A DNA stretch of 64,000 bases from the NCBI GenBank assembly GCA_001724265.1, contig MEDY01000140.1, forward strand, positions 1-64,000. Direction: 5' to 3'. The notes beneath the pieces are model-generated. The model was not told where the DNA came from, did no database searches, and was given only the letters and a program-made list of their open reading frames with translations. This DNA is from Rhizaria sp. SCN 62-66. Taxonomy: Eukaryota. How positions within the stretch are numbered: the stretch's first letter is position 1; each line of letters opens with the position of its first letter. Shown here in pieces: positions 2 through 48,580 of the stretch. Both the position numbers and the translations under genes were made by a program.

Positions 2-879
2 GTGTACAAAGCGTTCTGCGTGCGGCTCTGCGACGTAAGTGTCGTCATTCTCGGTCAAGACCCCTGCCCCCGCGCGGAAGTCAACGTTTACTTGGAGGGG
101 TCAACGGAAGTCAGCGAAAACAAGCAGACAAACAACGGTTTCGCGTTTTGCACATGCGCAGACTGGACCGAAGATTGCCCTCCTTCGGTGCTCAACGTGA
201 TCGAAGAAATGTACAACTGCATGGCCCCGCCGCACTGCAGTATCCGCTATGACGACATGATCGACCCGCTGTTGAATCGCATCGACAAGCAGATCCCCGA
301 TGCCATGCTGCACGATCACGGCCGGTTTCTCGCGCGCCAGGGCGTGTTGCTGCTCAACTGCGCGTTGACCGTAGGTAACGAAACGCCTGGCTCTCACGTC
401 GGCGCGTACCGACCGCTGACGCGCGCGGTGCTCTCCGCGGTCGTTCAGGCGCGACAGGGCAAGGTCGTGCTTATCACTATTGGCAAGACCGCCGCTGAAA
501 TGGTTGAAGGAATTGCCGGAGGGTTCCTGGCCCACTTTGAGACGGGCCACCCGTCGACACTCAACCGGCAGGCGTTCGTTGAAGGAGCCAAGGGCCAGTT
601 CGTCGGTTCAGGCGTGTTTCGCGGCGCTAACGACGTCTTGCTGCGGCACGGGGTCGCCACGTACAGTCACAAGCGCGGATCTACCCAGCGCGCCGTCACC
701 GGTGTGCATTGGCTGCCGCCGGAGTGGCTGCCGGAGCGCTGGCGTCACACGCCGCAGTTGAGCTCCACTGAAGTCAAGCTGGAGCCGCTGCGCAAAGGGC
801 TCTGGCAACGCTCCTCACAGTTCGGGAAACCGCCGCCGTGCAATATGTCTCGCGCTCGGCCCGCGAATGATCTCGCCTC

Positions 880-921
<42 letters not shown>

Positions 922-1465
922 TGAGAGCGAGGTCGAAGAGAATGGCAACGGTGGAAAGTCTCGCGGTGGTTGGGCGGCGTATTGGGCTCAACGCAGAGCG
1001 CGCGAAGCGCAAGACGAGAACAAGGGCGAGGTCGAAGAGAATGGCAACGGTGGAAAGTCTCGCGGTGGTTGGGCGGCGTATTGGGCGCAACGCAGGGCGC
1101 GCGAAGCGGAAGAACGCGAAGAGCAAGACCGGCAAGAGCGTGCGCGCGAAGCGGAGCGGGAAAGGCGCCAACAGCACCAGGAGCGGCGGCGGCAGTGGCA
1201 TCAGGGAGGCGCGCGCGGCAAGCGGCGCTATCAAGACGATGACGACGAGTCTGGGGAGCAAGAGGACGACGATGAAGACCAAAGGGGCCGGCGCGGGTAC
1301 CGTGGCTGTGGCTATGGTCAGTGGGGTCAAGGACGCGCACAGAACCGTTATGAGAAGGAGCAATATGACGATGCTGAGGAAGAAGACGATGACCGCGAGG
1401 AAAAGGCCAAAGCTCGGAGGCTCTTCTGGGCCCGGAAGAACGCCGCACAAAAGCGCTGGCGATGA
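2..1465 (+). CDS. Divergent uracil-DNA glycosylase family-1 (UNG-like) protein, 5'-partial, with acidic/Arg-Gly-Trp-rich C-terminal tail
   Basis: Motifs VVILGQDPC (53-67), NGFAF, PPSVLNV, ARQGVLLLNCALTV, GSH, HPSTLN, F-GSG-F-AN-L, VHW in UNG order; ends TGA; the N-terminus lies outside the window. Confidence 0.88.
881..921 (+). repeat. (GAGGAC)n microsatellite encoding an EDEDED acidic run
   Basis: Direct reading of sequence. Confidence 0.9.
929..1108 (+). repeat. Two-copy 81-nt direct repeat (period 99 nt) encoding EVEENGNGGKSRGGWAAYWAQRRAREA
   Basis: 929-1009 and 1028-1108 differ only at two synonymous positions. Confidence 0.95.
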
Positions 1466-2824
1466 AGTACACATGGTCATGCCTGGGCGCTTGAACCATA
1501 TGATCGCAACGTCAAAGCAAAGTTGAGTTATTTTTCTTGAAGTGACTTAAAGTACAGAGGGTCCAATGACTTTGTCATCAATAGTGACGCACGCTAAAAA
1601 GACGTGCAAAAGATGCGACATCTCGAAAAAGCACATCAGAACGTGCGCACGACGGCCGGCTAATAATGCACTTTTGTTTTTCGGCTCAACCACCATATTC
1701 CTCCCTCAACATTGGTCACAGTTCAAAGAGAGGTAAGGGGCAAGGGGAAGAGCGAGCAGATGACATAATAAGTATCGACCAAAAAGACACCAACTTTGAC
1801 CGCCTCACTCGTCATCAGCCTCCGCACTATTCTCCATGCTCACAGTTTTTTCAGCACACCCGGGATTTGTATGGTGTAAACTACTTTTACACTCACGAAT
1901 ATACTTGAACAAGTTCGTCTTGGAGCGCGGCGCTTTGGTGCATGAGGTAGATGATCTTGTAGGGAATGGTGGTGTGGTTCAGGCGCTTGAGGAGGAACAG
2001 GGATGTAAAGCTGGCGGCGTAGCTGATGGGAAAATAGTACGCCCCGCACTCCATGGTGTTTGCGGGGGGTAGCCCTCTGCGTGTGGCCCCTCCGCATCCC
2101 CAGTCTTTATCAGCTCCTCAAAGATAGCAACTTTGAGCCACCAGACCATGTAGGGCCCCCTCCGGACCGGTACTCCCGAAAGCGCATCCTTGTGACGTGT
2201 GCTTAAGTTCAACCTTTTGTCCTCTGACATCTAGTCTTCAGGTGAAAATGCGATATAGAGGGTTGATGTCTTTGACCTGAAGTTTAGAGGGCGGTTTGAG
2301 CCGTTTGATGGGGCTAATCTACACGTATACTGCAAGACACACAATAATACTTAAAAAACGTATTTTCAACTACGCATAAATTACAATTCATACCGTTAAA
2401 TTTACATCGACGGCTATTTCATGTGGTAATCCAGTGATGTTTTTTGGGGATGGGGAGTCTGGCCGAGTGCCGCCACACCCAATTTGTGACCCCAGTGTGA
2501 GTGACTTTCTCCCCGAGGTCTTCAATGTCGTTGTGTATGACGCACAAGCGGCGTGTAATCGGAGGTGTTTTTTTATTTCGAAATAAATATGTATCATTGA
2601 TAACTGCTTTGATTGGATGTGAATGAGTTAACGCGAACTTTCCGCCGTAACTCCCCGCGACAAAGATTGTCCCCTTTCTGTGGGTCAGCCCGTCCAGCAC
2701 ATGACTCATCCCACATATTCTGACAGACCTACGCATGAATCAAACGGTATGATTTAATATAAGCACTGCTCACACGTGTGAAATGTGTATTGTGTTCTCC
2801 GTGTGACATTTAGCCTCTTTGCGG

Positions 2825-5731
2825 ATGAGCACTGCGAGGCTAGATCTCAAACAGCTCCACGACAAGGAGCGCGAATACCAACGCCTCTACTCCGCAGCCC
2901 GGATGGAAATGAAACGAGCTGAAGCCGCAGCTTCTGCCGCAGGCGCCATTCTTCCGGCTATGGATGGGCGCGTTATTGCAGCAACTGAGCATGCGAAGCA
3001 AGTTCACGCTGCTCTCGTGCAAGCCACGCAGGCCCTCGCTGCTGCCGAACGGGCACGTATGCCCGCCGCCGCTGCTGCAGCTCCTGCTCCCACTCCCCCC
3101 GTTGCGCCGACTCATGTGGCAAACGCGTCTCTCAAAGCGAAGCGTGCTCTTATGCAGCATACAGAACAAGCGTCCCTCGCACTCCGCCAGCAGGCGTCTG
3201 CCGCTCACAAGGCCCTAATCAATGCAAGGGCGCGTCCTCTGTCGCCCGATCCCGGCCAGGCCAAGCAGCAGCTCGACCAGATTGAGAAGCTTGTCCTGAC
3301 TGTCAGCGACCTTAGCAGCAAGGTGAATGCCGCCGTGGATGTTGCTAAGAAGGCGCTCAAGGAGTACAACTCGGCTGCTGCCTCCGCTGCTGCTCCCGCT
3401 GTTGCGCCCGCTGCGCCCTCTGCGCCCTCCCGCAACACTGCTGCGGCGGCTAAGTCCACAAACCCCGCACAGCCAGGTCAGCTCGCCAAGCTTCGTGCCG
3501 CGGCGACTGCAGCGCGGGCCAACGCTGATGAGATCGTTGCACGAGCGACTGCTGCGCGGATGGAGCTCAATGCGACCAAGGCGACTGCAGTGCCCAAAGA
3601 CGCTCGCCTGGCGCAGCAGCACCGCGATCTCATTAAGAACCTCGAGATCTTGGCAAAACATCATAGCGACAACGCATCTCGTGCGGGTGGCGAGGCGAAG
3701 CTTGCACAGGACAAGTATAACGCTGCTGTCGCGAAGGAGAGGCCGCTGCAGAACGCAAAGCCGAAGGCTTCGTCCAAGGGTCCTGAGGACGATGCCTCCA
3801 GCCACGCTACCGCCGCCGCGGCACGCAACGAGCTGCTCTTGCGTTATCAGGAGTTGCTGCGCGAGGCACGGACTCTTCAAGTCGCCGCGTCCGAGGCTAC
3901 CAAGACCGCGAACGCGGCTCAGCGCGCTCTCGCGTCCAATTCTAACGCTGGTGGCGCGCAGCAGCAGCGTGATCACGTCAACGCACTGAAGGCTGCCGGT
4001 AGGAGCGCTTGCTCAAGGGCCTCGATGGCCACAAACCTCGCCGACATTGCACTGCGCAACTACGAGGCTTTTGGCCGTCCCCTCGCAGTGCAGCAGGCTG
4101 CAGCGGCCAGACCGGCTCCAAACACCCGCCCGGCTGCTGCGGCCCGCCGTGCCGAGCAGCGCGTCCGTCGCCACGAAGAGGACCAGAACTACTCTGACGA
4201 TGAGGACAGCGACCGCAGTGACGACGATGACAGTGATGATGGCGGCGGTGGCGGCGGCGGTGATGATGGCGGCGGTGGCGGCGGCGGTGATGATGACGAT
4301 GATGACTACCCTGACGACGCACCGAACGCTCCGCGCATGAACGTTGCGTGGGAGTTTTACTCCACCACGTTACCGCACTACGACTGCGCCTGTCAGCCCT
4401 GTGTCAACAACAACTGTCGGTGTCGCGCTCGCCGCTGTATCGACGGCGTCAGGTGCCCCTGCGCAGACGTGCCCGAGTGGTACAACGATCTCGTGGAGAG
4501 CGATCCAAATATTCTGCTCCGCGTGCGTAGGTTGTTGAGGCGCGCCCACATTAAGCTTGACGAACGCAACTTCAACAAGCTTAAGAAGAAGCAGGAGGAG
4601 AGTGGTGAGCCTCTGCTGCCCGAGACTGCCCGCGCCAAGAAGCCGTACTGGGACGAAACAACGGAGATCACTCCTGCATTCCGCACTCAGCCGACGGAGC
4701 CCAGTGTGATTTTTGCTGCCTTTAAGCATGTGCCGCTTCACAAGGTGCGTGTTGTCGTGCTCGGCCAAGACCCCATGACTCGCGAAGGCGGTGCCAACGG
4801 CTACCCTTTCTGCTCAGCCACGGACGACATTAACGATGCGCACAACACGGTTGTCAACGTACTGCACGAGATGCACAACTGCACCAACAATGGTGTAACC
4901 GAGGTTTTAAGTTAGCCCACGCACATGAAGAACTTTACCGACCGCATCGTCAACTGCACTGAGGACGCGCCGTTATCCAAGCACGGTCAGTTCCTTGCTT
5001 CTCAAGGCGTGTTGATGCTTCATTCTGGGCTTACAGTCGCGAACGACAACCCGCGCTCGCACTTGCACGCGTGGCGACACTTTACACAAGCTATTCTTCG
5101 ACTCATCGTGCACACAAACCCGGACGTCCTTATCGTGCCTATCGGTGTGGTTGCGCGTGACATGGTGGCCACATCGCTCCTTGGTGTTAACTACAAAAAA
5201 CTGTGGAACGCCCGCTCACGCCGCCGCGTGCACGAGCTTGTCACGGGAACCTATATCGAGCGTGACGAGGACTGGATTCTCCACGACAACGTCGGTGCGG
5301 GCATTACTGCTGCTGGTCGCCGGATGTTTCGCCCATCCCAGATCTTTTACGCTGGCCACCCGTCGAAGCGGAATAGTGATTTGGAAAAAAGGGGCGCGCT
5401 GCACCGTTTCATCGGCTCCGATGTGTACCGCAAGGTGAATCGCTATCTTGCATAGCACGGCCGCGACCCCGTGCACTGGCTGCCCGCCGACTGGCTGGGG
5501 CCCCAGCCCGACTACCTCGATGACGAGCCGCTTGACATCGCCGACGAGGCCGAGATTCCCGGCTACATTAACGCGCCCCGTGGCCAGGATCATGTGATGC
5601 GCCGTCTGCCTGTGCCGGTGTCAATGGCCGACCTGGTGCCGCCTGTCCTGCCCGAGCCTCCGGGCCAGGAGGGCCCTGAGGGCCCTGCTGGCCCTGGCCC
5701 TGCTGCTGGCCCTGAGGGTCCTCATGCGTAA
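2825..5731 (+). CDS. Second UNG-like protein (~968 aa): N-terminal Ala-rich helical repeats, Asp/Gly linker, Cys-rich cluster, UNG-like domain; two in-frame TAG codons (4913, 5453)
   Basis: ORF-track pieces 2819..4915, 4925..5455 and 5471..5731 are one frame separated only by TAG; motifs VRVVVLGQDPM, ANGYPFCS, ASQGVLMLH-LTV, HPSKRN, NRYLA*HGRDPVHW span all three; ends TAA. Confidence 0.8.
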
Positions 5732-6998
5732 GCTAAGCCTCGAGTAAATGTGTGCGCGGCTTGTCAGTAGTTCTCACTCGTAACGCACCCTTGTGGCGTT
5801 ACACTCTCTCTACCCGACTCAGTGTATTGGCTGTGTAGTGTCTGTTTTTCGCTTTCACTTAAGTCAAACGTGTTCGCACCTTCACGCTCTATGGAGGGTG
5901 TGGTTTTAACCATATTTGAATGAGACGTATGTTTTTTTAATTTTCCTCTGATCCCATTGATCCCACTGACTGCCTTGTGTTTTTTGGGACAATGATGTGT
6001 GCATATTCGGGAATTGAGCTGAGACATACGCCTAACTGCGACCCTCGACTCAATCCGCGATGTCACCATTGTGTGCTTTTATTTTTGACTTTAATATCAC
6101 CCGTGTGACGCTTTGCCGCACGCCAGTTCTTTAATTTCATCATCATTGATTTTTTAACGCACCACGTTTATGTGTTGCTAATTGGCAGACTCGCGACTGC
6201 GACCGCTGTACGCAGCTACTTCTCGACCGCAAAACTGTCAACTCATTTGACACGCATGGATGTTCGTTCTAAGTAGCGTCCACTTCCTGGAGACTCACAT
6301 GACCTCGTATCGCGCGCAGCACGCGCCTGCAGCAATACTGAGTCACCTGGAACATGGGCCTCTGTATCTCCTAATACATTGCATACACATCTTTATGAGC
6401 ATATGCACAGTTTCATGTACATTGTGACTGGACTAACGTTCAGTTCCTTTGTGTTTTTCACACTACTCGGCGTTGTTTGGCCTCTATTCAACTTATATGC
6501 ATCTTACGTGGCACCGTTCGATTTTTTCGACCCAAGAAGTCAGCAAAGCGAGGCGGATCTCATCAAGATCCGATTACTTTATCGGACTTCTGTTGACACA
6601 CGGCGGTCGTGTGTGTGCATACTGTTCTTTGATGATATTGTGCGTGTGCTATTGTATATCTACAATTTGGAAATATTATCTTTCAACGAACTTAATACGG
6701 TTAAATCTGCGTATTAACATAGACTCAAGATCGGGTGATTGAATCACCAGAATGCAATATCGTCCTCAGCCCATGCTTAGCAATGCAGAATTTGGTTGGG
6801 GACATATTATGAAATGGTATGCTCGTGTGTCATCGATACTGCGCCGCGTGCATTTGACTTACACTTGAACTCGACCTCGTGATCGCCTCTTTCCGTCGCT
6901 TCCATTCAACGGTTGCCCCTCCCAACCATCGCTCTCCAACTATCCTATATCACCCGCAACCGGTCTCGATCACTGCAACAGAACTCAACTCTACAACC

Positions 6999-8584
6999 AT
7001 GGCCGAGAGTACGTACTATATCCTGCGCCAGCATCGCCTGAGTAATTAAATTGAACCTCATATCTCGCATCATTGTCCTTCATCTGAACCACGTGCTCAT
7101 TCTCACTCGCTTCGCCTACACACTGTTCTCATCGCACCACTGAACCCTCCACGCAGCCGCCTCCGTCTTTGCTTCCGTCCCCGTCGCGCCCGCGGACCCC
7201 ATCCTGGGCATGGCCGCGCTGTTCCGCGCCGACACCGACCCGCGCAAGGTGAACGTCTCCATCGGTGCCTACCGCACCGACGAGGGTAAGCCCATGGTTC
7301 TGCAGTGCGTCCGCGAGGCCGAGGCAGCGATCCTGGCCGACGCGTCCCTCGACAAGGAGTACCTCACCCAGCGCGGCAACGCCAACTTCTGCAACCTCGC
7401 CCGCGCCGTCATGCTCGGCGCTGACTGCCCCGCAACGGCTGAGGGACGTGTCGCGACGGTGCAATCACTGTCCGGCACCGGCGGCCTCCGTGTCGCCGCC
7501 GCGTTCGCCGCGCGCTTCCTCGCCCCGCCCGCGGTGTTTTGCCCCGCGCCGACGTGGTCCAACCATCTGTCGATCCTTGAGGATATCAACCTCAAGGCCG
7601 GCAAGTACCGCTACTGGTGCCCCAAGACCCGCGGTCTCGACATCGAAGGCATGATCGCCGACCTCAACGCCGCCCCGGCAGGCTCGCTCGTGCTGCTCCA
7701 CGCGTGTGCGCACAACCCCACTGGTGTGGACCCCACGCACGCGCAGTGGGAGCAGATCGCCGCTGTCTGCAAGGAGAAGAAGCTCATCCCCTGGTTCGAC
7801 TCGGCCTACCAGGTACGCAAAAGTCAAAACAATATCGATTCATTACAAGTGGCACACATGCACTCACATTGCAATAACGCGTTGGTTTGACTGATAACTC
7901 CAATTTTTCTTTCTGAAAGTCATAATTTATTTTGGATACTGATTGCTATCATGCCAAACTTGTCTAACCTTCTCTTCTTCTGATTCGTAACTCTTGTTGT
8001 GTAATCTATTCGTACAGGGCTTCGCGTCTGGCTCGCTGGACGAGGACGCTTGGGCCGTGCGCTACTTCATCAAGTCTGGCCTTGAGGTCCTGATCTGCCA
8101 GTCTTTCGCTAAGAACATCGGCCTTTACGGCGAGCGTATCGGCACTTTCTCCGTCGTCACCTCGTCCGCCGCTGCCGTGACCCCGATTCTGTCGCAGCTG
8201 GACCTCATCATCCGCACTCTGTACTCGTCCCCGCCGCTCCACGGCGCGCGCATCGTCGAGCGCGTGCTCTCCTCCCCCGAGCTGACCACCAAGTGGCACG
8301 AGGAGATGCGCGTGATGTCTTCGCGCATCCGCGACATGCGCGCTGCTCTGCGCAGTGAGCTTGAGACGCTCAAGACCCCGGGCCAATGGGGGCACATCAC
8401 CGACCAGATCGGCATGTTCTCGTTCACCGGGCTTACCCCCGAGCAGTGTGAGATCCTGATCAAGAAGCACCACATCTACCTGCTCAAGTCGGGCCGCATC
8501 TCGATGGCCGGCGTCACGTCGCACAACGTCAAGTACATCGCTGCTGCCATGGACGACGCCGTCCGCACCGCGCCTTCCGCGTAA
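6999..8584 (+). CDS. GOT1: Aspartate aminotransferase, cytosolic type; exons 6999-7008, 7157-7812, 8018-8584
   Basis: PADPILG, KVNVSIGAYR, LHACAHNPTGVDP, FDSAYQGFASG (across intron), SFAKNIGLYGER (PLP Lys), GRISMAG; GT-AG introns keep frame; no presequence; ends TAA. Confidence 0.95.
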
Positions 8585-12806: not shown

Positions 12807-13985
12807 GCGCGGTGAGGCAGCTCTCCGCGCGCTGTGCCTGCTGCTGATTGTGGGTTGATGGGTGGTGGTGACGGGCCAGAGCCGTCAAATTAGTTTATTT
12901 CGGGGACTTGCACGACTGGCAAGTCCGAATGAGTGGTATAGATAGAATACATTGATACTACAACGACGCTTGTGTGTGGAACTAGATGATAATCGTCTTT
13001 ATGTAACTGTTAACGTGCACATGGACAAGAAAGAAGAGCCGGTGCGCACCACTTGCTCTCTTGAGAGATTCGCTTCGAGAGCGATTGAGTATGTGGTTAC
13101 TTGTTGTCATGTCAAATGTGGTCCGGGAAGACCGTTGAATGACATCAGCGCTGTCGACTAGAGATCATATTATGACTCTTTTTTAGTCTTCTTATTAAAG
13201 TTGAAGACTCGTGAACTGCATTGCACTATAGCCTTCGAGAAGACACCCCTCAAGTCAAGCTCTTGTCGTCAGCGCAAACCCACACCATCGACTATATATC
13301 ACGACATCAACCGCATACCGAGCCACAGATGTGTGCTGATAGCTTATTCACAATTATTATATTTTAAAAAATAGCTCATTTTTGTATTCCACTGCATTTT
13401 TTTCCTGTAGAGCGAACTTTACCTCGCTCGACAGATCCTGCGTCAGCACCGAATCTATCGCAGTTCCGTCCCGTGCACCCTCCCCCGTGCCTGGTTACTG
13501 CGACGACCGACGCGTGCGTCAAGCCAGTTTCTCTTGTTTTTCAACCCTTGTCAGCTCTTTCAGCGCCAGAAGGTTGCGCCAGAGCGAAACATCCGCGCAA
13601 GCAGCAGCCGGATCCTTGGAAGGCAGTAACAACACGTGCAGCTTGCTCGTTACCCACAGCGTCACTCCAACGGCAGCAACAGCAGCAGTAGCAGCAGCAG
13701 TCCGCAGCAGCACTTGTTAGCCTGCGCCCCACGTGTGTGACCATATCTCGCAAGCGCCCCCATTCGCCCTTCAGCACCGACCGCGCAACAACTACCACTC
13801 GCGCTCACACCCGCAGCAACAGCAGCTCCACTGCTGGTTCGCCGAACGTTAACACGAAGACTCGGACGAGCACGCGCAGAGAGAGCGTGACCCCCACGCA
13901 CACCGCCACAACCGCTACACAGCCACACACGCAGCCACGCACTCAGTCCCAGGCGCAGTCCCGCTCACAGTCGCAGGCACAGCTC

Positions 13986-16900
13986 ATGTCAAAGATGCCC
14001 CCCCCGCGCCGTGCCCCAGCGCCCTCCGGGCGCCTCAACAGCAGCACCAGCACCAACAACAGCAATGGTGGCCAAGACCGCGAGGAACAGGATGCGCACA
14101 ACGACAGCGCAGTCGGTCTCGACGACATCAGCTTCACCACCGACGCCCCTCAACAATCGCAGTCCCGCTCACAGTCGCAGGCCCAGGCTCAGACCCAAGC
14201 ACATGCGAGGAGCTCACACTCGCTGGGCGCGGTGCTAGCGACGTCTCTGGTTCCGCCCCACCCGCGCCGCACGCTCCCGCTCTCTGAGCCCACGGCGGAT
14301 CCCCTCTCGGCGCTTCCGGGCACGCGCATCTGGGCGACCGCGAACGACCCCCCGCTCTTTACTACGGACGTCAGCCCCGAAGACCGCGCCGAGCTGATCA
14401 AGCTCGCCCGCACGTGCGCGCCCACCGATGCCTCGGAGCGCGTCGCTCCCGCCGAGGGCCCCGGCGCCGACGCAGACACGGGACTCGTTGCGCGCGCGCT
14501 CTTGGAGGCCGCGGACGCTGCTGTCCCGCAGGCGACGGTCGCGCTCGCATCGCCGCTGCCGCGGTCGGCGGCCGCGCATCCACTCCGCGGCCTCACCGGA
14601 CTCAGCAACCTGGGCAACACGTGCTACCTGAACTCGGTGCTACAGGCGCTGCTGCATACTGTCCCGCTTCTGACCATCTTCTCCCGCACTCTGGTCCCGC
14701 AGCCGCGGGCGACGGCCGGGATGACCCAGTCCGCCGCCAACGCTCTCGCGGCGCGCGGAACCCTCGCCCGCGAGTTCGCGACCCTTGTCCGCGCCGTGTG
14801 GGCCGAGCGCGCCGGCGGGGCGGTGCGGCCCGACGGGTTTGTGCGCGCGCTGTGGGGGGCGTGTTCGTTCTTCCAGGGGTACGAGCAGCACGACGCGCAC
14901 GAGGCGATCCGCGCCATCATCGACGCGCTCCAGGAGGCCACCGCAACTGAGGTGCAGTACTCCCACTGGCAGCATGACACGCGCGCGCCGCTGCCACTCA
15001 AGCTGCGCAGGGACAACCTTGCGACGAACACGGAGGACGCCAGCAGCAACAAGGGGAAGAAAAGCAGCAAAGACAAGAATGGCAAGAAGGACGATGGCGA
15101 CGATGATGATGATGAGAGCGAGGCTGGTAAGAAGAAGAAAAAGACGCCCCCACCGCCTCCGCCGGTTAAATTCCCCCGTTTGTGCCCCATCTCGGAGGTT
15201 TTCGAGGGAGAACTCACCTCGGAGGTCAAGTGCAGTAAGTGTGGCAACGTCAGTGTGACGAACGAGCGGTTTTACGACCTCTCGCTGGAGTTGCCCAGCG
15301 ACAAGCAGCTCAAGAAGGTCTCGCAAGAGCGCGGTACGTCAATTTTTTGTGAACAACATTCTTTTTATAGAATTGGAATTATATTGTATTTGTATGCTGT
15401 ACTCTTTCATTGCAACTCCTCTTATCTCGTTTTGTTAATTTCGTTGGTATTTTTGCGTGTTCATAGGTTCCGACGCGATCGTGGCTCCATCTGGTTCCCA
15501 AGGCATCTTCTCCCGCTTCGCCACCGCGATCGGCCTCAGTTCCGCGCCCCTATCTCTGGAGACGTGCTTACACTCGTTCTGCACCGGCGACCACTTGGAC
15601 CAGCAGGACCGCTACTTGTGCGAGAAATGCGACGAACGCGTTGAAGCGCAGAAGCATATGTCACTGTCGCGGCTGCCGGAAGTGCTCTGCTTGCACTTGA
15701 AGCGTTTTTCGCACTCGGCGGGCATCTTTGGTGGCATGGGCACGCACAAGGTTTCTGCTGCGGTCACATACCCGCTTGATGAGCTCGACATGGCGCCCGT
15801 ACGTCAACAGCTGATGCCACATTACAACACAAATCAATGAACTGTCTTAGGAACATGTGCCTAACTTTCATGGTAGATTCTATGTGTATAGTGTGATTCG
15901 TTGTATTGAAACTATTTTGACAACAAATCACATCATATTTGTGCATATCCAAACTGACCCTGAACTTTTGTGGTTTTTTCTTTCTTCGTTCGACAGTACT
16001 TGCACCACACGCACCCACGCGCGCCCTCGACGGTGCGCCGTCCTCCGGCCAAGGTGACCCTCCCGGACTTGCCGCCTGCGTCCCCTGTGGCGCCGCTCTT
16101 CGCTGGCTGGGACGGCGAGGCCGTCGCGTCAACGGCGTACACACTGACTGCGATGGTGCAACACATGGGGTCCGCGTCGTCCGGCCACTACGTCGCGCGG
16201 TGTCGCCACCCGCTCACGGGCCAGTGGCACCTCTTCGACGATCACCACGTGTCGCGCGCGCTCAACCCCGCCACCGACGTCGCCAACGCCGAAGCGTATA
16301 TCCTGCTCTACACCCGCAAGCCACAGCCTAACTCGGCACTCGCGGCCGCACACGCGCTGCTGCTGCGCCGCGCCGCCGCCGCCGCGCTCGCCGACTCTAA
16401 GGTGCTGCAGCCCAACACACTTGCACAGATCGCTGCCGCCTTCTCGGCCTACTCGCTCCCGGTTACGGACGCGTCCGAACGCGCCTTCGTTCTTCGCATC
16501 GTCGCGCGCGCCGTCGACGCCGCGGCGGCCGCGGGTGGCGCGCGCGCGAGCGACTCGTTCTTCCTCTCGCGCACCTGGGTCACCAAGGCGCTGACGTTTG
16601 CGCGCGTGCCTCCAGTCGACAACCGCGATCTGTGCTGCGTGCACGGCGTGCCGTTGACTCTCCGCGCGTCGTCGCCGGCGACCGCGGCCGCGGCGCGCGC
16701 GCGCCTGCTCCAGGCCTCGCGCCGCGCCGGTGTCCCTTTGACTGCGACTGCTGAGAATGAAAATGCGAGCGCAAGTGCGCGTCGCTTGCCAGTCGCTCCC
16801 GCGGCATGGCACACTGCGGACTTCGCGCAAGACTTCGCGGAGCACGCCGCTGCCGTCGTCGCCGCACTCAAGGCCGCATCCAGCGCCACCGCGGCCGGCC

Positions 16901-18228
16901 GCGCTGAAGCTGGCGCTGGCTCTGGTTCTGGGTCTAGCAGTCAAAGGACGCGCTCGCCGCACCGGGGCGCAGCCGCCGACGCCGCAACCGCTGCATTGGC
17001 CCTCTCCGCGCTGCCGCCGCTGCCGTCGCCGCAAGACCTCGCCAACGACGTTCTCTCTGCACAAAGCCAGCAGCAACAACAGCAGCAGCAGCAGAGTGAT
17101 TTGGAGGCGCGTGCGATCCGCGTTTCTGGCGCAGCCTGGCGTGAGCTTGTCGCGCGCTACGGCGGCGGACCGGAAGTCACCGGCGCGCCCCTGCCCCCCT
17201 TGCCTGGCTCTGGGCCGAGCGCCAGCGCCACCGCAGCCGCCAGTGCAACCGCGAGTTTGACTGCGAATTCCGACAGCGGTGCGATGTGGCTCCGCAACGC
17301 CATTGCCGTGTCGCTGTCGCCGTCGTCTCCTATCTTAGCGCTGCCGCCGTCCAATATCGTCCCTTCGCAGGCACTGCTCGCCGCGTCGCCGCCGCTGGCC
17401 TCGACCACGACGAAGTCCCCTCTGCCCGGCCCGACCCCCAGTCAGAGCTCCCGCAGCAACAGCGGTGGCGGCGCCAGCGCCAGCGCCCGCGCGCCCCCGC
17501 TGCCCGGCGGCTGCGCTCTGCTGACCTTCTCCGGCGCCTGTGCCCGCTGTGCTCTGCCACGCCTCGCAGCGGCTGAAACGTATTTAGTCAAGGTTGTTTC
17601 GCGCCTGATACCGACCGACGACAACGATCCATACATGCTTATTACGCGTGACTGGCTCGTGCGGTGGCGTGCGTTCGTCGGCTCCAACGGCGTCGCGCCG
17701 CGCCCCGGGCCCATTGACAACACGCCGTTGCTGCGCATTTCTCCAGCGAGCAGCGCCACTGGCGAGGGTGACGGTGCTGCGATGACGCTGAGGGCGCGGG
17801 AAGGGCTCGAGATCAACCACGACTACAAGACCCTTGCGCCTGCGTCCTTTTACGCGCTGCTGGGTGTGTACGGCGGCGGACCCGTGATCATGCGTTCCCA
17901 AGGCAACCTCTACGCCGGCGGCGACATCGACGGGCGCTGGTACTCGCTCCACACCGGTCTACCTCTCACCTCTGCTGTTGGGGGGAGTAATCCTTCTGGA
18001 AATCCCTCTAGGGGTAGTAATCCGTACCGCAGTGCGTTGGGAGACGCGAATGACGACCCCGCGGAGGACTACAACGACGGTGACGACAATGACGACGGCG
18101 ATGAGGAGGAAGATGAGGAGCTGAGCGGGGATAAGCCCCAGAGGCTGTGGCGCAGTGCACGCAGACTCGTGCGCGCGATGGAGCAAGACCTTGCCGATGT
18201 CGCCGCGCGCGCCGCGCCGCTGCTTTAA
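13986..18228 (+). CDS. Ubiquitin-specific protease (USP20/USP33-like: USP domain plus two C-terminal DUSP domains); exons 13986-15333, 15467-15798, 15997-18228; start uncertain
   Basis: Cys box GLSNLGNTCYLNSVLQ, QHDAHE, CxxC pairs, LPEVLCLHLKRF, His box GHYVA--W-LFDD, AYILLY; two P-P-DN...YGGGP DUSP-like units; splices keep frame; ends TAA. Confidence 0.88.
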
Positions 18229-32391: not shown

Positions 32392-35300
32392 TTACATTTG
32401 CTTGTCATCTGTCATATCGATAACCTTCGATGCCACCGCACTTGTGGCCGCAGCTGCGCTCGCAGCGGCAGCAGTCGTCGTCGCAGCGTTTGCGGCTGCA
32501 GTAGCAGCAGCAGCAGCAGCAGAAGCAGCAGCCGCCGCTGCCGCATTTTTAGCGGCAGCGTTGGCGGCCTGCACGGCTGCGTGTCCGATCATGCGCTCAC
32601 CCATAGTGACATCCCAGACCAGCCCCGCGCCCGTGCCCGCCGCAGTGGACGCGTTGGCGGCGGCCAACAGCACGCGCCGAGCCAGCGCCCGGCGCGGCCG
32701 CGGCATCGCGCGCCACCACGCCGCCGCGCCGCGCTCGTCCTCATCCTCATCGTCCTCGTCTTCGTCCGCGGTGACGTCCTGCGCCGCGTCAGAGCCGCAG
32801 CCGTCGCCGCCTGCGACCGGCCGCGGGCTACGGGGCGGGCTAGGCCGCGCGGCCGCTGCGCCTGACGCGGTGCGCTTGCCGCGACTGCGACCGTCGCTGG
32901 CTTGCTCGTACGCATGGAGAGGACGCGCAGACATGTTGGTGCGTCCCGGCCAGGGCCAGGGCTGCTCGAGCGTGGCCAGCAGAACGACGCCGCGCCCGCC
33001 GCTGCCGACGTCACTGCCGCCGCACGCCGTCGCCGCGGCCGCAGCGCCCTGAACAGCAGTGCGCGCGTGCGCGGCCGCGAGCAGGGCTGCGTCGTACCGT
33101 GACAGCGCCGAGGGCTTCGCCTGCAGCCGCGCACGCGAAAGCGCGGCCTCAGCTTCGTCATCGCCCTCGGGCACCACCGCGCTCGCCTCGGCGGCCTCGG
33201 CGGCAACGGCGGCTTCGGCGGCGTCCGCGGCAAAGGCGGCGGCGCGCGAGCCAGACGGCGCCCAGAGCCGCGAAAGCTCGCTGTACAGCGTGGTCAGCAG
33301 CCCCAGCGGCGCGCGCGAGAGCCAAAGGTCGAGCCGCGGCAGCACAAGCACCGACGCAGGCGGCGGCGGTGGCGGCGCAGATGCGGACGCAGACGCAGCG
33401 TGCGCGTGACCACCGGCGTGCCTCGAGCCCGCAGCGACCGCGGCCACCGAGGTGTGATCGACGTGGCTCTGCGCGAGCTGGCGGGCGGCGGACACGGCGG
33501 CGGCGAAAGCCTCGGTCACGGCCCAGCAGGCCTCGGCGCCGGCGTCGGCCGTGGCGTCGGAGTCGGCGGCGGAGGCCAGCGCGGACGCCAGAGCTGCGGG
33601 CACGCCGGCGGTGACGAGCGCGGAGACCGACTGCGAGGCCGCGGCGGTGGCGGCCGCGTGCGGTGCAATGCTCGGCAGATACAGATACTGGATGGGGCAC
33701 TGCGCGAACGGCCCCGCAGCGCCCTCGGTCGTCGCGGCACTGTTAGACCGCTCGATGGCGCTGCCGGAGTGACCGTGAGCGAGGACCTCGTGGAGCAAGT
33801 CGCCTGGGCAGGACGCCAGCAGCAGCGAGCGCAGCTGCGGGGGTAGACGCATGCGCGGCGGTAGTGCCAGCAGAGGTCGCGCGGACGCAATGGGCGCAAC
33901 ACTCACAAGCGGCGGCGTAGATGCCGGGAAAGTGTCTGCAGCAGGAGTTACACCAGAGGCGATCGCGCTTTTGTCAGTCAATGCAGCAGTCACTGCCTTA
34001 CACGCGCTCGTTTTGGTGGACGCAGCAGCAAGGTACGCGGCAAATGCAGCAGCCGCAGAAGTGTGCCCACGGAAGCCGAAGTCACTACTCGCCGTGGGGG
34101 CGTTGACAAGAGCGGTCGCGGCGGCAGCGCCTCCGTTGGCAGCCACCGTCGCCGCCGCCGCAGCAGCAGCAGCCGCCGCAGCAGCAGCAGAGGCAGCAGA
34201 GGATAACGGCGCAACGGGCGCGGCGAGCGCTGCGACTAAAGAGAGCGCCTTGCGCGTGCGGCGCAGCATCGTCGCCGAAGCCGCGCTCCACAGCTGCCCG
34301 TGGCCGCCACCAGCGCCGTGGCCTGTGGCTGTTGGCGGCAGGCAGATGCGCGACAGCAGATACCCCGCGTGCCGCGCCCACGGCGTCGGCGGTGCGGAGG
34401 GCATCTCGGCCGCCGCTGCCGCAGCCGCAGCAGACTCCGGAGTCGCGGTGTCGCTGCTGTGGAGGCCCGACGCAGCGAGCGAGGCGAGGAGCCCGCCTGC
34501 GCCGCCGTTGGCGCTGGCGAGTGCGTCGGCGCCAGCAGTGGCAAGCAAGAAAGGGTTCGCGTCGCCAGTACGGGCGATCGACGGCTTAACTTTGAACAGA
34601 GCCTGGTCGAAGTGCCTGTCGTGCACGCACACCAGCTCCAGGTTCAGCGGCGCAGTGAACGCGAGCGGCGTGCCTTCAGCTGCGGCGGCGCCGGACGGGG
34701 TGGCGGTGAGCGCAGGAGCGCCGGTCTCGAGCTGGTTCTGCTCCGAGGCCTCGGAGATGGCGCAAAAGAGCGCCTCGCGGCACAGAGCCTCCATGTCCGC
34801 GCCAGAGTAGCCCACAGTAGCCGCCGCGACGCGCGACAGCGACAGGGGCGCACCGGAGGTGCTGCTCGTCGTGCCGGCAGTGGCGGCAGCGGAGGCCGCC
34901 GCGGTGGCAGCGAAGACAGCGCGAGCCTCAGCCGCGTCGGCGGCCGCGCTTGCAGCGGCGATATTGGCGATCGAGGCCGCAGCTGACGCAGCAGTTGCGT
35001 CACCCGAGTCAGCGTCCGCATTCACCGAAGCGAGCAGTGCCGCAACCTTGCTGTGGGTCTCATCAGCCTCAGCACGGGCAGTCTGCGCAGCCGCTGCGGC
35101 CGCGCGGGCCGCGTCACGAAGCGCGCGCTTGCGGTCGCTCTCACGCGGCCACTTGGAGGTGACGCGGCGCAGGATATCGAGGCGCCCCGCGGCGTCGGGC
35201 AGCCCGACCTGGATCTCGCGGTCGAAGCGTCCCGGCCGGCGCAGCGCGGGGTCGATGGCGTCGGGACGGTTGGTCGCCGCGATCACGGCCACGCCGCCGC

Positions 35301-38300
35301 GCGAGCCGACACCGTCGAGCAGCGAGAGCAGCGTGGCCACGATCGACGAGTGCACCTGGTCCTGGCGCGAGGACCGCACGGGCGCCAGCGCGTCGACTTC
35401 GTCCAGGAACACCACGGCGGGCGCCATTTGCGCCGCGAGCGCGAACAGATCGCGCAGCCGCCGCTCGGTCTCGCCGTAGAAGCGCGAGAGCACGTCAGAG
35501 CCCTTGCGCGCGAAGAAGCTCACGCGCGCACCGCGCAGCCAGCGCTGCGGCGTCGTCGCCCAGCGCAGGCGCGGCGGCTGCGGCGCGTCGGGTGGCTGCC
35601 CGTCCGCGGCGCCCGGGGCCGCCGGCTGGCCGCGCTTGCGGCGCGGGGTGACGCCCAGCAGCGAGAGCGTGCCAGCCCTGACCGCGGCCTTTTCTTCCTC
35701 GGTCAGACCTTCGAAGTCACTGTTCTCTTCGTCGTCATCGTCGTCCTCCTCATCGTCTTCCTCGTCGTCGTTATTCTTGTCCTCTTCGTCGTCGTCGCTG
35801 CCCTTCTTGCCTTTGCCCTTCGTACCCTTGGTGTCTTTGTCCTTGCCCTTGCCATGCTTAAGCTTCTTGCCGTTAAGGTCAAGCCCCAGTTTCTTCTGTG
35901 CATGCTTGAACGCGCGCAGCCAGCTGCCCACCTCAGCGCCAGCGTCTGTGGGCACTGTAGCGTACGCCTCCGCAGCAGTGATTGCCGCCGCCGCAGCGCT
36001 CTCGGCGACAGATGCAGCAGCCTTCGCCGCCGCTGTAGCAGCTTTGCGCGAGCCTGCGGTGGCGCCAGCCGCCAGTTCAGCCACTGCGGAGCCTGCCGTG
36101 GACCAGGAGGAGAGTGTGTTCGCAGGGGCACGAGTCTCACGGGCACTACGGCGTGAAGCGGCGGCACGAGCAGTGTTTCTATCTTCACGATCCTTTGCGT
36201 CTGCGTTCGTGGACACTGTTGCCACAGGGGCGCTACTGGCGACAATCGGCTTCTGAGCAGCAGACTTAGCGGCACGCTTGCGCTTGGCGACATGTCTAAC
36301 ACGGCGTTTCTTGCGGGCGCCGCCATCGTCGTCGTCATCATCGTCATCGACGTCGTTGTCGTCATCAACATACTCATCATCGTCGGCGTCCATATCGTTG
36401 CTATCATCGTCATCGTCGTCGCTCGCATTGTTGTACGCAGTGGCCTCAGCAGCGTCTTCATCGCCGTCACTGAGCGCGGCAGAGGCGCGCGGCACAGGCG
36501 CTCCACCCGCGGCCTCAACACCGGCCGCAGCCATCGCCTCCTCCATCGCCAGCTTGACTGCGCGCGCGACGCCCGGCGCCGCGGCGTCGCCGCCGTCGAA
36601 GCAGAGCGCGTCGCACGCCGCCGCGACGGTGCGCGCAAGCAGCGTCTTGCCTGTGCCGGGCGGGCCGTGCAGCAGCACGCCCGACGGCGGCTGTGCAGAG
36701 AAGCGCGCGTACAGCCCCGGGCACGCGAAGGGCAGCAGCAGGCCCTAGACGAGCGCGGTCACCGCGGTCGTGTTGCCGGCGACGGCGCGCCACGCCGGCG
36801 AGCACCGCAGTCGCGTGAACAACTCGACGGACCGCGCCGTGAACAGCGGACCGTGGTTCACTGTCGTTGCCGTCGCCGACGCAGAGGACGAGGCAGTTGA
36901 CTTGACAGGCGCTGCGACAGTCGACGCAGAGGCAGCAGCCGCAGCAGCGACTGAGGGTCGCCCTGCGAGAGCACGGATACTGTCCTCGTCACCCACCGCA
37001 GTGATGGCGGCGGCAGCGATGCCCACAGTCGTACCAACGGTAGTCGCACTGTCAGTCGCGTCGCCCATTGCGGAGGCCATCGGCGTCACGAAGTGCAGCG
37101 TGTCGAACACGGGGGCCGCGGAGGCGGCGTCCGCACGGCGTTGCTGCGGCGGCGCAGTGGCGATGGATACGAGCTCCTTGGCAGCAGCCGCGCACACCGT
37201 CGCCAGAGCGGCGCCGCCGGCCTCGTTGGCAGCGGCCGCGGCGGCCTCGAAGCGTTTCCACGCGACCGCGCCAGCGCGCGCCCTGTCAGCGGCCGTCACG
37301 GGCTCAGCCTCAGCGAAAACGTCACCAGCGGTGAGCGCCGTGGCCGGCGCGTCAACCGCGGCGGCCGCGGCGAGGTAAAGCTTGGTGGCGACGGCGTCGA
37401 GAGGTGAAAAGGTGTAGCTGGAGACCGACGCAGAGAGCGCGCGCACGCGGTCGCTGTCGCGCAGGCCCACAGTTGTCGTCGCCGCCACAGCCTCCGCGCC
37501 TGCCGGCGTCACCGTGACAGCCGTTGGGGCAGCCTCAGTGGCGACGGGTGCGTCCGCGCCTGTGGCAGCAGCAGCAGCAGCAGCGGCAGCAGCGGCAACG
37601 GCAGCGGCCGCGGCGGCCGACTCGGGATCCGCATTTTCGGCCGACTCAGCAGGCGCTGCAGACACCGCCGCGGGAGGCACGTATGAGTCAAAGAAGCGAG
37701 CCTGTTGCCGCTGCTTTGCGATGAAGCGGGCCAGCACGCGAGCGGCGCTGCGGGCGCGCGCGGCCACCGCGTTGACACGGGCCGCAGCAATCGAAGCAGC
37801 GTTCTTCTCACGAGCTGCGTTTGTCACTGCCTTTGCGCTCTCATCGGTGGCACCAGAGACAGTCGACTCTGCAGCGACAGCTGTCGTCGCGGCTGCGTTT
37901 GTGACAGGCTTCTCTTTAACACTAGTGACAAGCGCGTGCCAAGCAGCCTGCTCCGCAGTGCGCACGAACATAAGATAGCGCAGCGCGCGCGCGGCCTTGG
38001 CGCGCTCGAGGTTCCGCGCTGTCGCCATCGCCTCGGCCGCGCCGCCAGAGGAGCGCGCGGCCTCAAGTGCGGCAGTCGCAGCCTTGGCCGCGGCCTCGGC
38101 CTGCGCGAGCGCCTGCTGCGCCGCTGCGGCTGCGGCGGCTGCGGCCTGCTCGCGCGCCTTCTTGCTCATCTTGCGCATGCCCGCCGCGGTCGTCGTCGGC
38201 GCATTGGGGTCGTTCTGGGCCGACGAGGCGGCCGCGGCAACCGCGGCGGTGGCGGCGGTGGTCGCCGCTGTCACAGCAGCCGCCTGCGCGCGCGTCGCGG

Positions 38301-47226: not shown

Positions 47227-47263
<37 letters not shown>

Positions 47264-47334
47264 GACTCGAGCTTGCGGAGCACCTTCTGCGCAGGGGCAG
47301 ACGCAACAGCAGCGCCTGTAGACGAGGATGATGA

Positions 47335-47374
<40 letters not shown>

Positions 47375-48201: not shown

Positions 48202-48580
48202 CGGTCGGGCGAACGCGGAACGACGGAAGCCAAGGGACTGCGGACTGTCGAGGGTGAGATCGGCTTCTTTGTGCGGTCAAGAGCGGACTTCTTCTACAGC
48301 AAAAATCGAAGGCAAGAACGAGTTTTTAGTGAGTATAATAAGAGCGCCCGGCAGAAATTTATCAATCAATTTAGTACAGCAGGTCACTGTGCAATTAACG
48401 ATCAATACATGTACATAGCTCAGCCGCAAGATCCCGTGCCTGAGGGCGCGGACTGACCGACCGACCAGCCGATGTACTGCAGACCAGCCGCGGCGGCCGT
48501 GCCAAGCAAGCGAAGGTTCATGAAGCCACAGGTTTGTTGAGTTGACCTGTTTTTTTTTGCCGTCGTGCAAAGGAAAACGG

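What the first reader, a model, noticed from the sequence alone, without database searches (positions are those of the whole stretch)
53..570. UNG paralogue 1 carries a natural Tyr-to-Cys change in the thymine-exclusion gate (GQDPC)
Seen: GQDPC replaces GQDPY, while the catalytic Asp, pocket Phe, PPS, Asn (GVLLLN) and HPS-L are kept; a ~15-aa insertion follows the motif. Known: in human UNG, Tyr147 sterically excludes 5-substituted pyrimidines, and the engineered Y147A/C/S mutants excise thymine. Inference: this may be a natural glycosylase for thymine or a 5-modified uracil (5-hydroxymethyluracil etc.), with a possible role in epigenetic base turnover, antiviral defence or toxicity; of interest for base editing.
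Basis: partly seen in the sequence, partly recalled or inferred. Interest (0 to 1): 0.78.

Follow-up and report, generated by a model that had tools for sequence, protein, structure and literature searches.

The report
Uracil glycosylase paralogue lacking gate tyrosine
A divergent copy of the DNA-repair enzyme uracil-DNA glycosylase in an uncultured wastewater protist really lacks the tyrosine that normally keeps thymine out of the active site, which may widen what it removes from DNA, but its activity is untested.

Summary
Window 2-1465 (+) is the 3' 487 codons of an open gene. Its first 230 residues are a family-1 uracil-DNA glycosylase (UNG) domain with GQDPC (53-67) in place of GQDPY. It keeps the catalytic Asp, pocket Phe, CPPS, GVLLLN and HPSTL, and has a 16-residue insertion after the motif.

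It belongs to a small family found only in metagenomes. Type 1 comprises this gene, at least three 82-95% identical copies that also carry GQDPC, and a 46% identical orthologue with GQEPS. Type 2 is the neighbour at 2819-5731 (GQDPM, with Asn and Leu lost) and its 49% identical orthologue. No member has the Tyr. All have Leu->Phe/Tyr and Ser->Cys beside the pocket Phe.

Substrate range could not be tested. My best reading (0.4) is an active glycosylase with a pocket remodelled at C5, taking U and perhaps 5-substituted U, but not general thymine excision. Evidence that weakens this:
- Asp->Glu in the orthologue.
- dN/dS of 0.62 (0.38-1.11) between copies.
- A possible compensating aromatic residue.

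The closest natural precedent is bacterial BdiUng (GQDPA), which excises 5hmU.

Separately, TAG seems to be read as a sense codon in this organism. So paralogue 2 and the sister copies are probably not pseudogenes.

The parts
2..1465 (+). UNG paralogue 1 (type 1): 487 codons, 5'-truncated by the window edge, TGA stop at 1463-1465, no in-frame stop of any kind
53..67 (+). Water-activating loop GQDPC. The catalytic Asp is at 59-61. Cys (TGC, 65-67) stands in the column of the Tyr gate.
77..124 (+). 16-residue insertion after GQDPCPRA. It is modelled as a beta-hairpin with pLDDT 63-74 in the sister copy P0001.
137..151 (+). GFAFC strand with the pocket Phe at 146-148. It carries two family-specific changes: Phe at 140-142 where canonical UNGs have Leu, and Cys at 149-151 where they have Ser.
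176..187 (+). Pro-rich loop, CPPS
221..283 (+). Second family-specific insertion of about 20 residues, between the Pro-rich loop helix and the uracil-recognition strand
341..358 (+). Uracil-recognition strand GVLLLN, Asn kept
548..565 (+). Minor-groove intercalation loop HPSTLN, His and Leu kept
704..730 (+). VHWLPPEWL, the equivalent of the C-terminal 'IDW' strand of canonical UNGs. It is conserved in both types and both species.
878..1462 (+). Low-complexity acidic/basic tail with two 27-residue tandem repeats (starting at 929 and 1028). Copy L001 lacks one repeat through an in-frame 81-nt gap.
2819..5731 (+). UNG paralogue 2 (type 2). It has an Ala-rich helical N-terminal half, a Cys-rich module (4379-4480), and a UNG-like domain with GQDPM (4763-4777), GYPFC, AHNT in place of PPS, GVLMLH (Asn->His) and HPSKRN (Leu lost). 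There are two in-frame TAG codons (4913-4915, 5453-5455) and a TAA stop at 5729-5731.

Best explanation
Window 2-1465 is a real nuclear gene of an uncultured GC-rich protist. It encodes a divergent family-1 UNG-fold protein (type 1) from a lineage-specific two-gene family. I think it is most likely still a base-flipping pyrimidine-DNA glycosylase. Asp activates the water, Phe stacks on the base, Asn and His read and stabilise the uracil-like face, and Leu of HPSTL pushes the base out. The C5 side of the pocket has been rebuilt: Tyr->Cys, together with Leu->Phe and Ser->Cys on the neighbouring strand and a 16-residue hairpin next to the loop. The expected result is excision of uracil and tolerance of some 5-substituted uracils (5hmU, 5fU or similar), not bulk excision of thymine from normal DNA.

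Shown: the fold, the motifs, conservation of a non-aromatic gate, and the presence of several copies.

Inferred: catalytic activity and substrate range.
For: - Fold and family: Pfam UDG; PDB matches are all UNGs; Foldseek TM 0.76-0.78 to E. coli, V. cholerae and human UNG.
- All catalytic and DNA-handling residues except Tyr are aligned and kept.
- These motif blocks are identical between the window copy and the 85.7% identical copy L001. The 40 of 222 residue differences fall outside them.
- The gate is non-aromatic in every member: C, C, C, S, M, L.
- Long-term retention: the type 1 orthologue P0040 is 46% identical over 265 residues. Type 2 and P0041 are 49% identical over 412 residues. The duplication therefore predates the two species.
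- RNA-library contigs identical to the window cover 335-614, 1078-1393 and 1444-1684. One of the same runs holds a spliced contig of the neighbouring aminotransferase gene.
- Precedents: hUNG Y147A gains weak thymine excision. BdiUng (GQDPA) excises U, 5hmU and xanthine, and A59Y lowers the last two.
Against: - No activity data exist.
- dN/dS against L001 is 0.62, with a bootstrap interval of 0.38-1.11, so neutrality between recent copies is not rejected.
- The orthologue P0040 has Glu for the catalytic Asp, IPT for PPS and a shifted Leu. Pfam does not recognise it at E 0.01.
- Type 2 has lost Asn, Leu and, in P0041, His, so the family tolerates loss of catalytic residues.
- The Phe/Tyr at -2 from the pocket Phe, present in 6 of 6 members, may refill the gate.
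- The active-site loops were poorly modelled in the window copy itself (pLDDT 61.7). I could not inspect model coordinates.
- The N-terminus of the window copy is not in the window.
Confidence: 0.4

Rival explanations
1. It is an ordinary uracil-specific glycosylase, possibly the organism's working UNG. The lost Tyr is compensated by the family-wide Leu->Phe/Tyr and Ser->Cys changes on the pocket strand, so 5-substituted bases are still excluded.
For: - The co-changes are present in 6 of 6 family members. In the 116 canonical sequences the same columns are Leu in 93 and Ser in 88.
- All other uracil-recognition residues are kept.
- A thymine-excising enzyme is genotoxic. Y147A degrades normal DNA and is a mutator, so selection should disfavour an open gate.
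Against: - A small set of canonical GQDPY sequences already has Tyr or Phe at that column (4 Tyr among 116; 3 Tyr and 2 Phe of 122). The aromatic is therefore not tied to loss of the gate.
- The spatial relation could not be checked.
- Several diverging copies plus a degenerate partner are unusual for a housekeeping UNG.
Confidence: 0.25
2. It is a non-catalytic or barely catalytic DNA-binding protein. The family uses the UNG fold for DNA scanning or binding, comparable to the catalysis-independent role of poxvirus D4, and type 1 is simply less degenerate than type 2.
For: - Type 2 lacks Asn and Leu, and His in P0041, yet is conserved at 49% over 412 residues.
- P0040 has Asp->Glu and no PPS.
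- Both types have added Cys-rich N-terminal modules and long low-complexity tails.
- dN/dS is 0.62.
- The abstract of PMC1936997, seen in the listing, describes a catalysis-independent role for vaccinia UDG.
Against: In the window's species every catalytic residue of type 1 except Tyr is kept, and is identical across copies that differ at 40 of 222 other positions. That is not expected if catalysis were dispensable.
Confidence: 0.22
3. It is a decaying duplicate (pseudogene) drifting neutrally.
For: - The upper bound of dN/dS reaches 1.11.
- Sister copies and paralogue 2 carry in-frame TAG codons.
- The gene belongs to a multi-copy family next to a high-copy repeat.
Against: - The window copy has no stop or frameshift in 487 codons.
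- The gaps between copies upstream of L001's TAA stop are 60 and 81 nt, both in frame.
- TAG also interrupts a 5,295-codon AAA-ATPase gene inside its conserved domain, so TAG is probably translated.
- Orthologues are intact in a second species.
- RNA-library contigs cover the gene.
Confidence: 0.08

Closest known systems
Family-1 uracil-DNA glycosylase (UNG; human UNG, E. coli Ung)
   Same: - Same fold: Foldseek TM 0.76-0.78.
- GQDP with the catalytic Asp, pocket Phe, Pro-rich loop Ser, LLLN Asn and the HPS-x-L intercalation loop are all kept.
   Different: - Tyr gate replaced by Cys, and His148 by Pro.
- Leu->Phe and Ser->Cys beside the pocket Phe.
- Insertions of 16 and about 20 residues.
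- About 13 extra residues before the C-terminal strand.
- A Cys-rich N-terminal module in full-length copies and a 250-residue low-complexity tail.
- Only about 30% identity.
Engineered hUNG Y147A (thymine-excising mutant; basis of glycosylase thymine base editors)
   Same: A small residue replaces the gate Tyr in an otherwise intact family-1 active site.
   Different: It is a laboratory mutant with weak thymine excision and a mutator effect (PMC2853124 passages; PMC11289083 passages). Here the change is natural, conserved, and accompanied by other pocket changes. Kavli 1996 itself is not held, and I confirmed only Y147A, not the C or S mutants.
BdiUng (Blr0248) of Bradyrhizobium diazoefficiens, motif A GQDPA
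   Same: It is a natural enzyme with GQDP and no Tyr. It excises U, 5hmU and xanthine, and A59Y lowers 5hmU and xanthine excision but not U. No G:T thymine excision was seen (PMC5449639 abstract and passages).
   Different: It is bacterial, with an overall fold like family 4 and no classical motif B. It is a dimer and is assigned to a new UDG family. The window protein is a true family-1 fold with HPSTL.
Other natural Tyr-less UNG-like domains in metagenome proteins (P0057 GQDPA, P0130 GQDPS, P0138 GQDPG, P0086 GQDPF, P0044 GQEPP, P0053 GAEPV)
   Same: These are family-1-like domains with GVLLLN or a close variant. Most keep an HPS/HPA motif, although the motif scan found none in P0138. All lack the Tyr.
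   Different: They are unrelated lineages at about 35-42% identity over partial matches, some as the second domain of tandem UNG fusions. None shares this family's insertions or its Phe/Cys co-changes. All are uncharacterised as far as my searches show.

Membership tests
Family-1 UDG (UNG) | UNG alpha/beta fold | tested here: met
   The model of sister copy P0001 (86% identical; pLDDT 78) gave 116 PDB matches with E <= 0.001, and every hit shown in the listing is a UNG, with TM 0.76-0.78. The window copy alone modelled poorly (pLDDT 61.7).
Family-1 UDG (UNG) | Water-activating loop GQDPYH: catalytic Asp | tested here: met
   GQDP is kept, with the Asp at window 59-61. Motif definitions are taken from PMC5538708.
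Family-1 UDG (UNG) | Water-activating loop GQDPYH: Tyr that excludes 5-substituted pyrimidines | tested here: not met
   Cys at 65-67. The family as a whole has C/C/C/S/M/L.
Family-1 UDG (UNG) | Pro-rich loop (PPPPS) | tested here: met
   CPPS at 176-187, with the Ser aligned to the invariant Ser column.
Family-1 UDG (UNG) | Uracil-binding motif LLLN | tested here: met
   GVLLLN at 341-358.
Family-1 UDG (UNG) | Gly-Ser loop | tested here: inconclusive
   Gly is kept and Ser is replaced by Lys (TIGK, 476-487). This column varies in the canonical set too: A 31, N 22, K 18, R 15, S 11 of 116.
Family-1 UDG (UNG) | Minor-groove intercalation loop HPSPLS (His, Leu) | tested here: met
   HPSTLN at 548-565.
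Family-1 UDG (UNG) | Strict uracil specificity; inhibition by Ugi | not testable with these tools
   Needs enzyme assays.
BdiUng-type UDG (GQDPA class) | Family-4-like fold with an extended protrusion instead of motif B | tested here: not met
   The window protein has a classical HPSTL motif B and matches family-1 structures. The BdiUng description comes from PMC5449639.

The most novel reading that the evidence does not exclude
Type 1 is a natural family-1 glycosylase for 5-substituted uracil or thymine-like bases. It works with its catalytically dead tandem partner (type 2) in handling a modified thymine, such as a 5hmU-type base, either in the protist's own DNA or in invading DNA. The host is an unsampled eukaryotic lineage that also reads TAG as an amino acid. 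If so, it would be a ready-made natural scaffold for thymine or 5hmU glycosylase base editors.
Probability: 0.15. Interest if true: 0.8.

Novelty: new variant of a known kind. Interest (0 to 1): 0.52.

Why it matters
In the passages I read, the Tyr gate is the residue that keeps family-1 UNGs off thymine. Thymine-excising forms have so far come from mutagenesis and now underlie deaminase-free thymine base editors.

A naturally selected, conserved, Tyr-less family-1 enzyme would show how evolution opens or re-closes that gate without killing the cell. It could also supply new editor scaffolds or 5hmU-specific reagents.

The family also shows a UNG fold drifting towards a non-catalytic partner (type 2).

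The side observation that TAG is translated in this eukaryote matters for gene calling. Public predictions of these proteins (P0001, P0002, P0042) are truncated at TAG. If confirmed, it would add a nuclear code variant in an unsampled lineage.

Tried and rejected
- Own-genome search for a canonical UNG: no genome is held.
- Viral-contig scan with the protein: 9 pattern matches, none a relative. A giant-virus or provirus origin was set aside. The neighbours are ordinary eukaryotic genes: ALG11, USP/UCH, an RNB exonuclease, a DAG-kinase-like gene, AAA ATPase, kinesin, Rpc25 and aspartate aminotransferase. GC3 is similar to theirs.
- A trypanosomatid host, which I had guessed from the strand clusters, was set aside. 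A GT..AG intron at 7810-8014 is spliced out in an RNA contig, and the aminotransferase has no close named relative, with the best named hits at 49-59%.
- Rfam and tRNA scans of the window found nothing.
- Earlier-findings look-ups: nothing on this genome or sequence. The word search returned two unrelated TAG-recoding notes.
- The first structure model from a 6-sequence alignment was too poor for the active-site loops (pLDDT 61.7).
- The ESM Atlas gave only generic bacterial UDG clusters.
- TAG as the 3' end of in-frame introns: rejected for the AAA gene, where homology runs through without a gap, and for L001, where the window copy has CAG in otherwise identical sequence. It is not excluded for the TAG at 4913, where a 21-nt GT..AG can be drawn.
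- Depth in the RNA runs was not used to rank expression. Parts of the gene without RNA contigs are not evidence of silence.
- Net charge and pI of the copies showed nothing telling.
- Kavli 1996 could not be read, and a search for Y147C found no paper.
- Supplementary files were not consulted. The supplementary structure figures of BdiUng and of Y147A could bear on the pocket geometry.

Full report
**1. What is at 53-570**

The + strand, frame 2, is open from the first bases of the window to a TGA at 1463-1465, giving 487 codons. The window edge cuts the gene. The sister copy P0001 has about 94 further N-terminal residues, which include a C-x2-C-x6-C-x-C module and the usual 'W...L...YF' start of UNG domains.

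Residues 1-230 are a UNG domain:
- Pfam UDG: E 5.2e-6, 27 bits against a cut-off of 24.3.
- PDB phmmer: 42 matched sequences up to E 1, all UNGs. The best is Deinococcus UNG at 6.2e-10. The herpesvirus UNGs align over the longest stretch.

Alignment with GQDPY UNGs and with 116 canonical sequences places the key features as follows; coordinates are.
- GQDPC at 53-67, with Cys (TGC, 65-67) in the Tyr column.
- Pocket Phe at 146-148.
- CPPS at 176-187.
- GVLLLN at 341-358.
- HPSTLN at 548-565.
- A 16-residue insertion at 77-124, and a second insertion of about 20 residues at 221-283.

The 116 canonical sequences were chosen because they carry G[QML]DPY and HPS. Their invariant Tyr and His are therefore true by construction.

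The five family-1 motifs are as listed in PMC5538708 (passages).

**2. Fold**

A model of the window fragment from a 6-sequence alignment was poor: pLDDT 61.7, with the active-site loops below 50. A model of the full-length 86% identical copy P0001 from a 122-sequence alignment was better:
- pLDDT 78 and pTM 0.80, with the core above 90.
- The insertion is a beta-hairpin at pLDDT 63-74.

Foldseek against the PDB gave 116 matches with E <= 0.001. Every hit shown in the listing is a family-1 UNG:

| Structure | TM on target |
|---|---|
| E. coli 1lqm | 0.76 |
| V. cholerae 2jhq | 0.78 |
| human 2ssp | 0.77 |

I had no access to coordinates, so the pocket itself could not be inspected.

**3. The family**

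In 5.8 billion clustered proteins, only two are close to the window protein: P0001 at 86% and P0002 at 82%. The other 36 hits are ordinary UNGs at 27-33%.

An exhaustive HMMER pass over 1.84 billion representatives with P0001 found 558 proteins at E <= 0.001. Only four stand above the generic UNGs:

| Protein | E-value |
|---|---|
| P0002 | 1.9e-140 |
| P0040 | 4.4e-63 |
| P0041 | 3.1e-17 |
| P0042 | 1.0e-11 |

P0042 is the window's own ORF 4925-5455. All come from metagenome assemblies and carry no names.

The family has two types.
- **Type 1** is the window gene, the copies P0001, P0002, P0192 and P0193 (all GQDPC), and P0040. P0040 is 46% identical over 265 residues and comes from an organism with Asn-rich low-complexity tails.
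- **Type 2** is the neighbouring gene at 2819-5731 and P0041, which is 49% identical over 412 residues.

Both types therefore exist in two species, so the duplication is old and both genes have been kept.

Key columns:

| Feature | Type 1, window species | P0040 | Paralogue 2 | P0041 |
|---|---|---|---|---|
| Gate residue | C | S | M | L |
| Catalytic Asp | D | E | D | D |
| Pro-rich loop | PPS (PSS in P0002) | IPT | HNT | HDT |
| Asn of LLLN | N | N | H | Q |
| His of motif B | H | H | H | N |
| Leu of motif B | L | shifted (HPSLE) | lost | lost |

Two further changes are shared by all six members. The residue two before the pocket Phe is Phe or Tyr, where the canonical set has Leu in 93 of 116. 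The residue after the pocket Phe is Cys, where the canonical set has Ser in 88 of 116.

**4. Copies and selection**

Locus L001 is a metagenome contig. A second contig returned by the same scan, L002, is 100% identical to window 3939-5594. L001 is 85.7% identical to window 19-1014 at the DNA level.

A DNA run that holds the window at a depth of about 30-38 also holds variant contigs of 65-623 at a depth of about 53-74. The organism or population therefore carries several type 1 copies. P0192 and P0193 look like mosaics of the P0001-like and window-like sequences.

Over the ungapped 666 nt of the UNG domain:
- The copies differ at 69 nt and at 40 of 222 residues.
- Nei-Gojobori dS is 0.157, dN is 0.098 and dN/dS is 0.62, with a bootstrap interval of 0.38-1.11.

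Constraint between recent copies is thus relaxed, and neutrality is not strictly rejected. The differences are clustered, however. Every motif block is identical between the copies: GQDPCPRAEVNVY, GFAFCTCA, EEMYNCMAPPHCSIR, RIDKQIPDAML, FLARQGVLLLNCALTVGN, AYRPLTRAVLSAVVQARQGKVVLIT and GHPSTLNRQAFVEGAKGQFVG.

**5. Expression**

Contigs from RNA libraries, all identical to the window, cover these stretches:
- 335-614 and 1078-1393 in run X5.
- 1078-1393 in run X6.
- 1444-1684 in the polyA run X8.
- Parts of paralogue 2: 3614-4262, 4427-4682, 5131-5429 and 5397-5995.

The tool warns that DNA can be present in such libraries. Run X5, however, also holds a contig that joins 7809 to 8015. That removes a GT..AG intron of the aspartate aminotransferase gene, so at least some of X5 is true cDNA. 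I take this as suggestive evidence of transcription, not proof.

**6. TAG (side finding that changes the reading of the neighbours)**

Paralogue 2 has two in-frame TAGs, and homology to the intact P0041 continues on both sides of each.

L001, read in frame, has four TAGs. Three align clearly, with CAG, CAT and TGG of the window copy. Upstream of a TAA its gaps against the window are 60 and 81 nt, both in frame. A 38-nt gap lies only after that TAA. The first TAG lies before the conserved C-terminal 'VHW' strand of the UNG fold, so the public predictions P0001 and P0002 are truncated inside the domain.

Independently, the minus-strand frame 48276-32392 is open for 5,295 codons except for two TAGs. 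The second of these (36747-36745) lies inside an AAA domain. phmmer alignments to Afg2 and Cdc48 run through it without a gap, placing it on a Ser or Glu position 20 residues before the Walker A motif.

In 14,936 codons of 15 confident gene segments there are 5 in-frame TAGs. TAA and TGA are absent from these frames by construction. Most genes in the window end in TGA or TAA.

The simplest reading is that this organism translates TAG, and I put that at about 0.75. Which amino acid it encodes cannot be told from these few sites. The alternatives are several independent nonsense mutations, or efficient read-through. Either way, the window's paralogue 1 contains no TAG and is intact as far as the window shows.

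**7. What the protein probably does**

The passages I read establish three things.
- In hUNG, Tyr147 blocks the 5-methyl group of thymine. Y147A gains weak thymine excision that is inhibited by Ugi, degrades normal genomic DNA in vitro, and raises A-to-G mutations in E. coli (PMC2853124; PMC11289083).
- E. coli Y66W stays uracil-specific, and Y66H loses about 170-fold in activity.
- The natural bacterial BdiUng has GQDPA. It excises U, 5hmU and xanthine from ssDNA, shows no G:T thymine excision, and loses 5hmU and xanthine activity but not U activity when Ala is changed to Tyr (PMC5449639).

No held paper contains GQDPC, GQDPS, GQDPM, GQDPL or GQEPS.

On this basis I favour an active glycosylase with a pocket remodelled at C5, taking U and probably some 5-substituted uracils (0.4). 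The rivals are:
- A uracil-specific enzyme in which the Phe and Cys co-changes refill the gate (0.25).
- A non-catalytic DNA-binding role, for which type 2 and P0040 show the family's tolerance (0.22).
- A decaying copy (0.08).

Free thymine excision from the organism's own DNA is unlikely, because the engineered equivalents are genotoxic.

**8. How unusual it is**

Six proteins outside this family also have a UNG-like domain without the Tyr:
- P0057 (GQDPA, twice)
- P0130 (GQDPS)
- P0138 (GQDPG)
- P0086 (GQDPF)
- P0044 (GQEPP)
- P0053 (GAEPV)

Natural Tyr-less family-1-like domains are therefore rare but recurrent, and my searches found none characterised. The window gene is a new variant of a known kind: a true family-1 fold with a conserved non-aromatic gate, inside a lineage-specific two-gene family.

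**9. Limits**

- No genome is held, so the presence of a canonical UNG and of base-modifying enzymes is unknown.
- The host is unidentified. The aminotransferase's best named relatives are only 49-59% identical.
- There are no coordinates for the pocket and no enzymology.
- Supplementary files of the cited papers were not seen.

Noticed in passing
window 36745-36747 and 47374-47376 (minus strand), 4913-4915 and 5453-5455 (plus), 56620-56622 (minus); L001 codons 223, 286, 347, 388: In-frame TAG codons lie inside genes whose homology continues across them: an AAA domain, the UNG paralogues and a kinesin tail. TGA and TAA end the genes. TAG is probably translated in this uncultured eukaryote, which would be a nuclear code variant; the amino acid is unknown. 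Public protein predictions are cut at these TAGs.
   Followed up: partly
window 32392-48276 (minus): A single frame of 5,295 codons is interrupted only by two TAGs. It is Ala/Ser-rich with Cys-rich (possibly zinc-finger) stretches that I did not scan, and carries two AAA ATPase stretches near the C-terminus. Gene callers would split it into three proteins.
   Followed up: partly
window 2819-5731 (plus): UNG paralogue 2 has about 500 residues of Ala-rich helical repeats and a conserved eight-Cys module (4379-4480). Its UNG-like domain has lost Asn (His), PPS and the intercalating Leu and has a 48-residue insertion before HPS. It is conserved at 49% identity with the 883-residue P0041, so it is likely a non-catalytic relative kept by selection.
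   Followed up: partly
window about 2089-2480: This intergenic stretch between the two UNG genes lies at a summed contig depth of about 900-1300 in a DNA run where flanking single-copy sequence lies at about 35-38. It is a high-copy repeat of the organism or community. It does not recur elsewhere in the window.
   Followed up: partly
window 7144-8584 (plus): Aspartate aminotransferase gene with a 205-nt GT..AG intron (7810-8014), confirmed by a spliced RNA contig. GC3 is about 0.88. The best named relatives are only 49-59% identical, so the host lineage is poorly sampled.
   Followed up: yes
window 13737-15644 and 15970-18228 (plus): The N-terminal and C-terminal halves of a ubiquitin hydrolase (UCH) domain lie in two ORFs in different frames about 325 nt apart. 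This is probably another intron; it was not checked against RNA.
   Followed up: no
proteins P0057, P0130, P0138, P0086, P0044, P0053 (metagenome hits): Other, unrelated UNG-like domains naturally lack the gate Tyr (GQDPA, GQDPS, GQDPG, GQDPF, GQEPP, GAEPV). Some occur as the second domain of tandem UNG-UNG fusions. They form a scattered, uncharacterised class worth a survey.
   Followed up: partly
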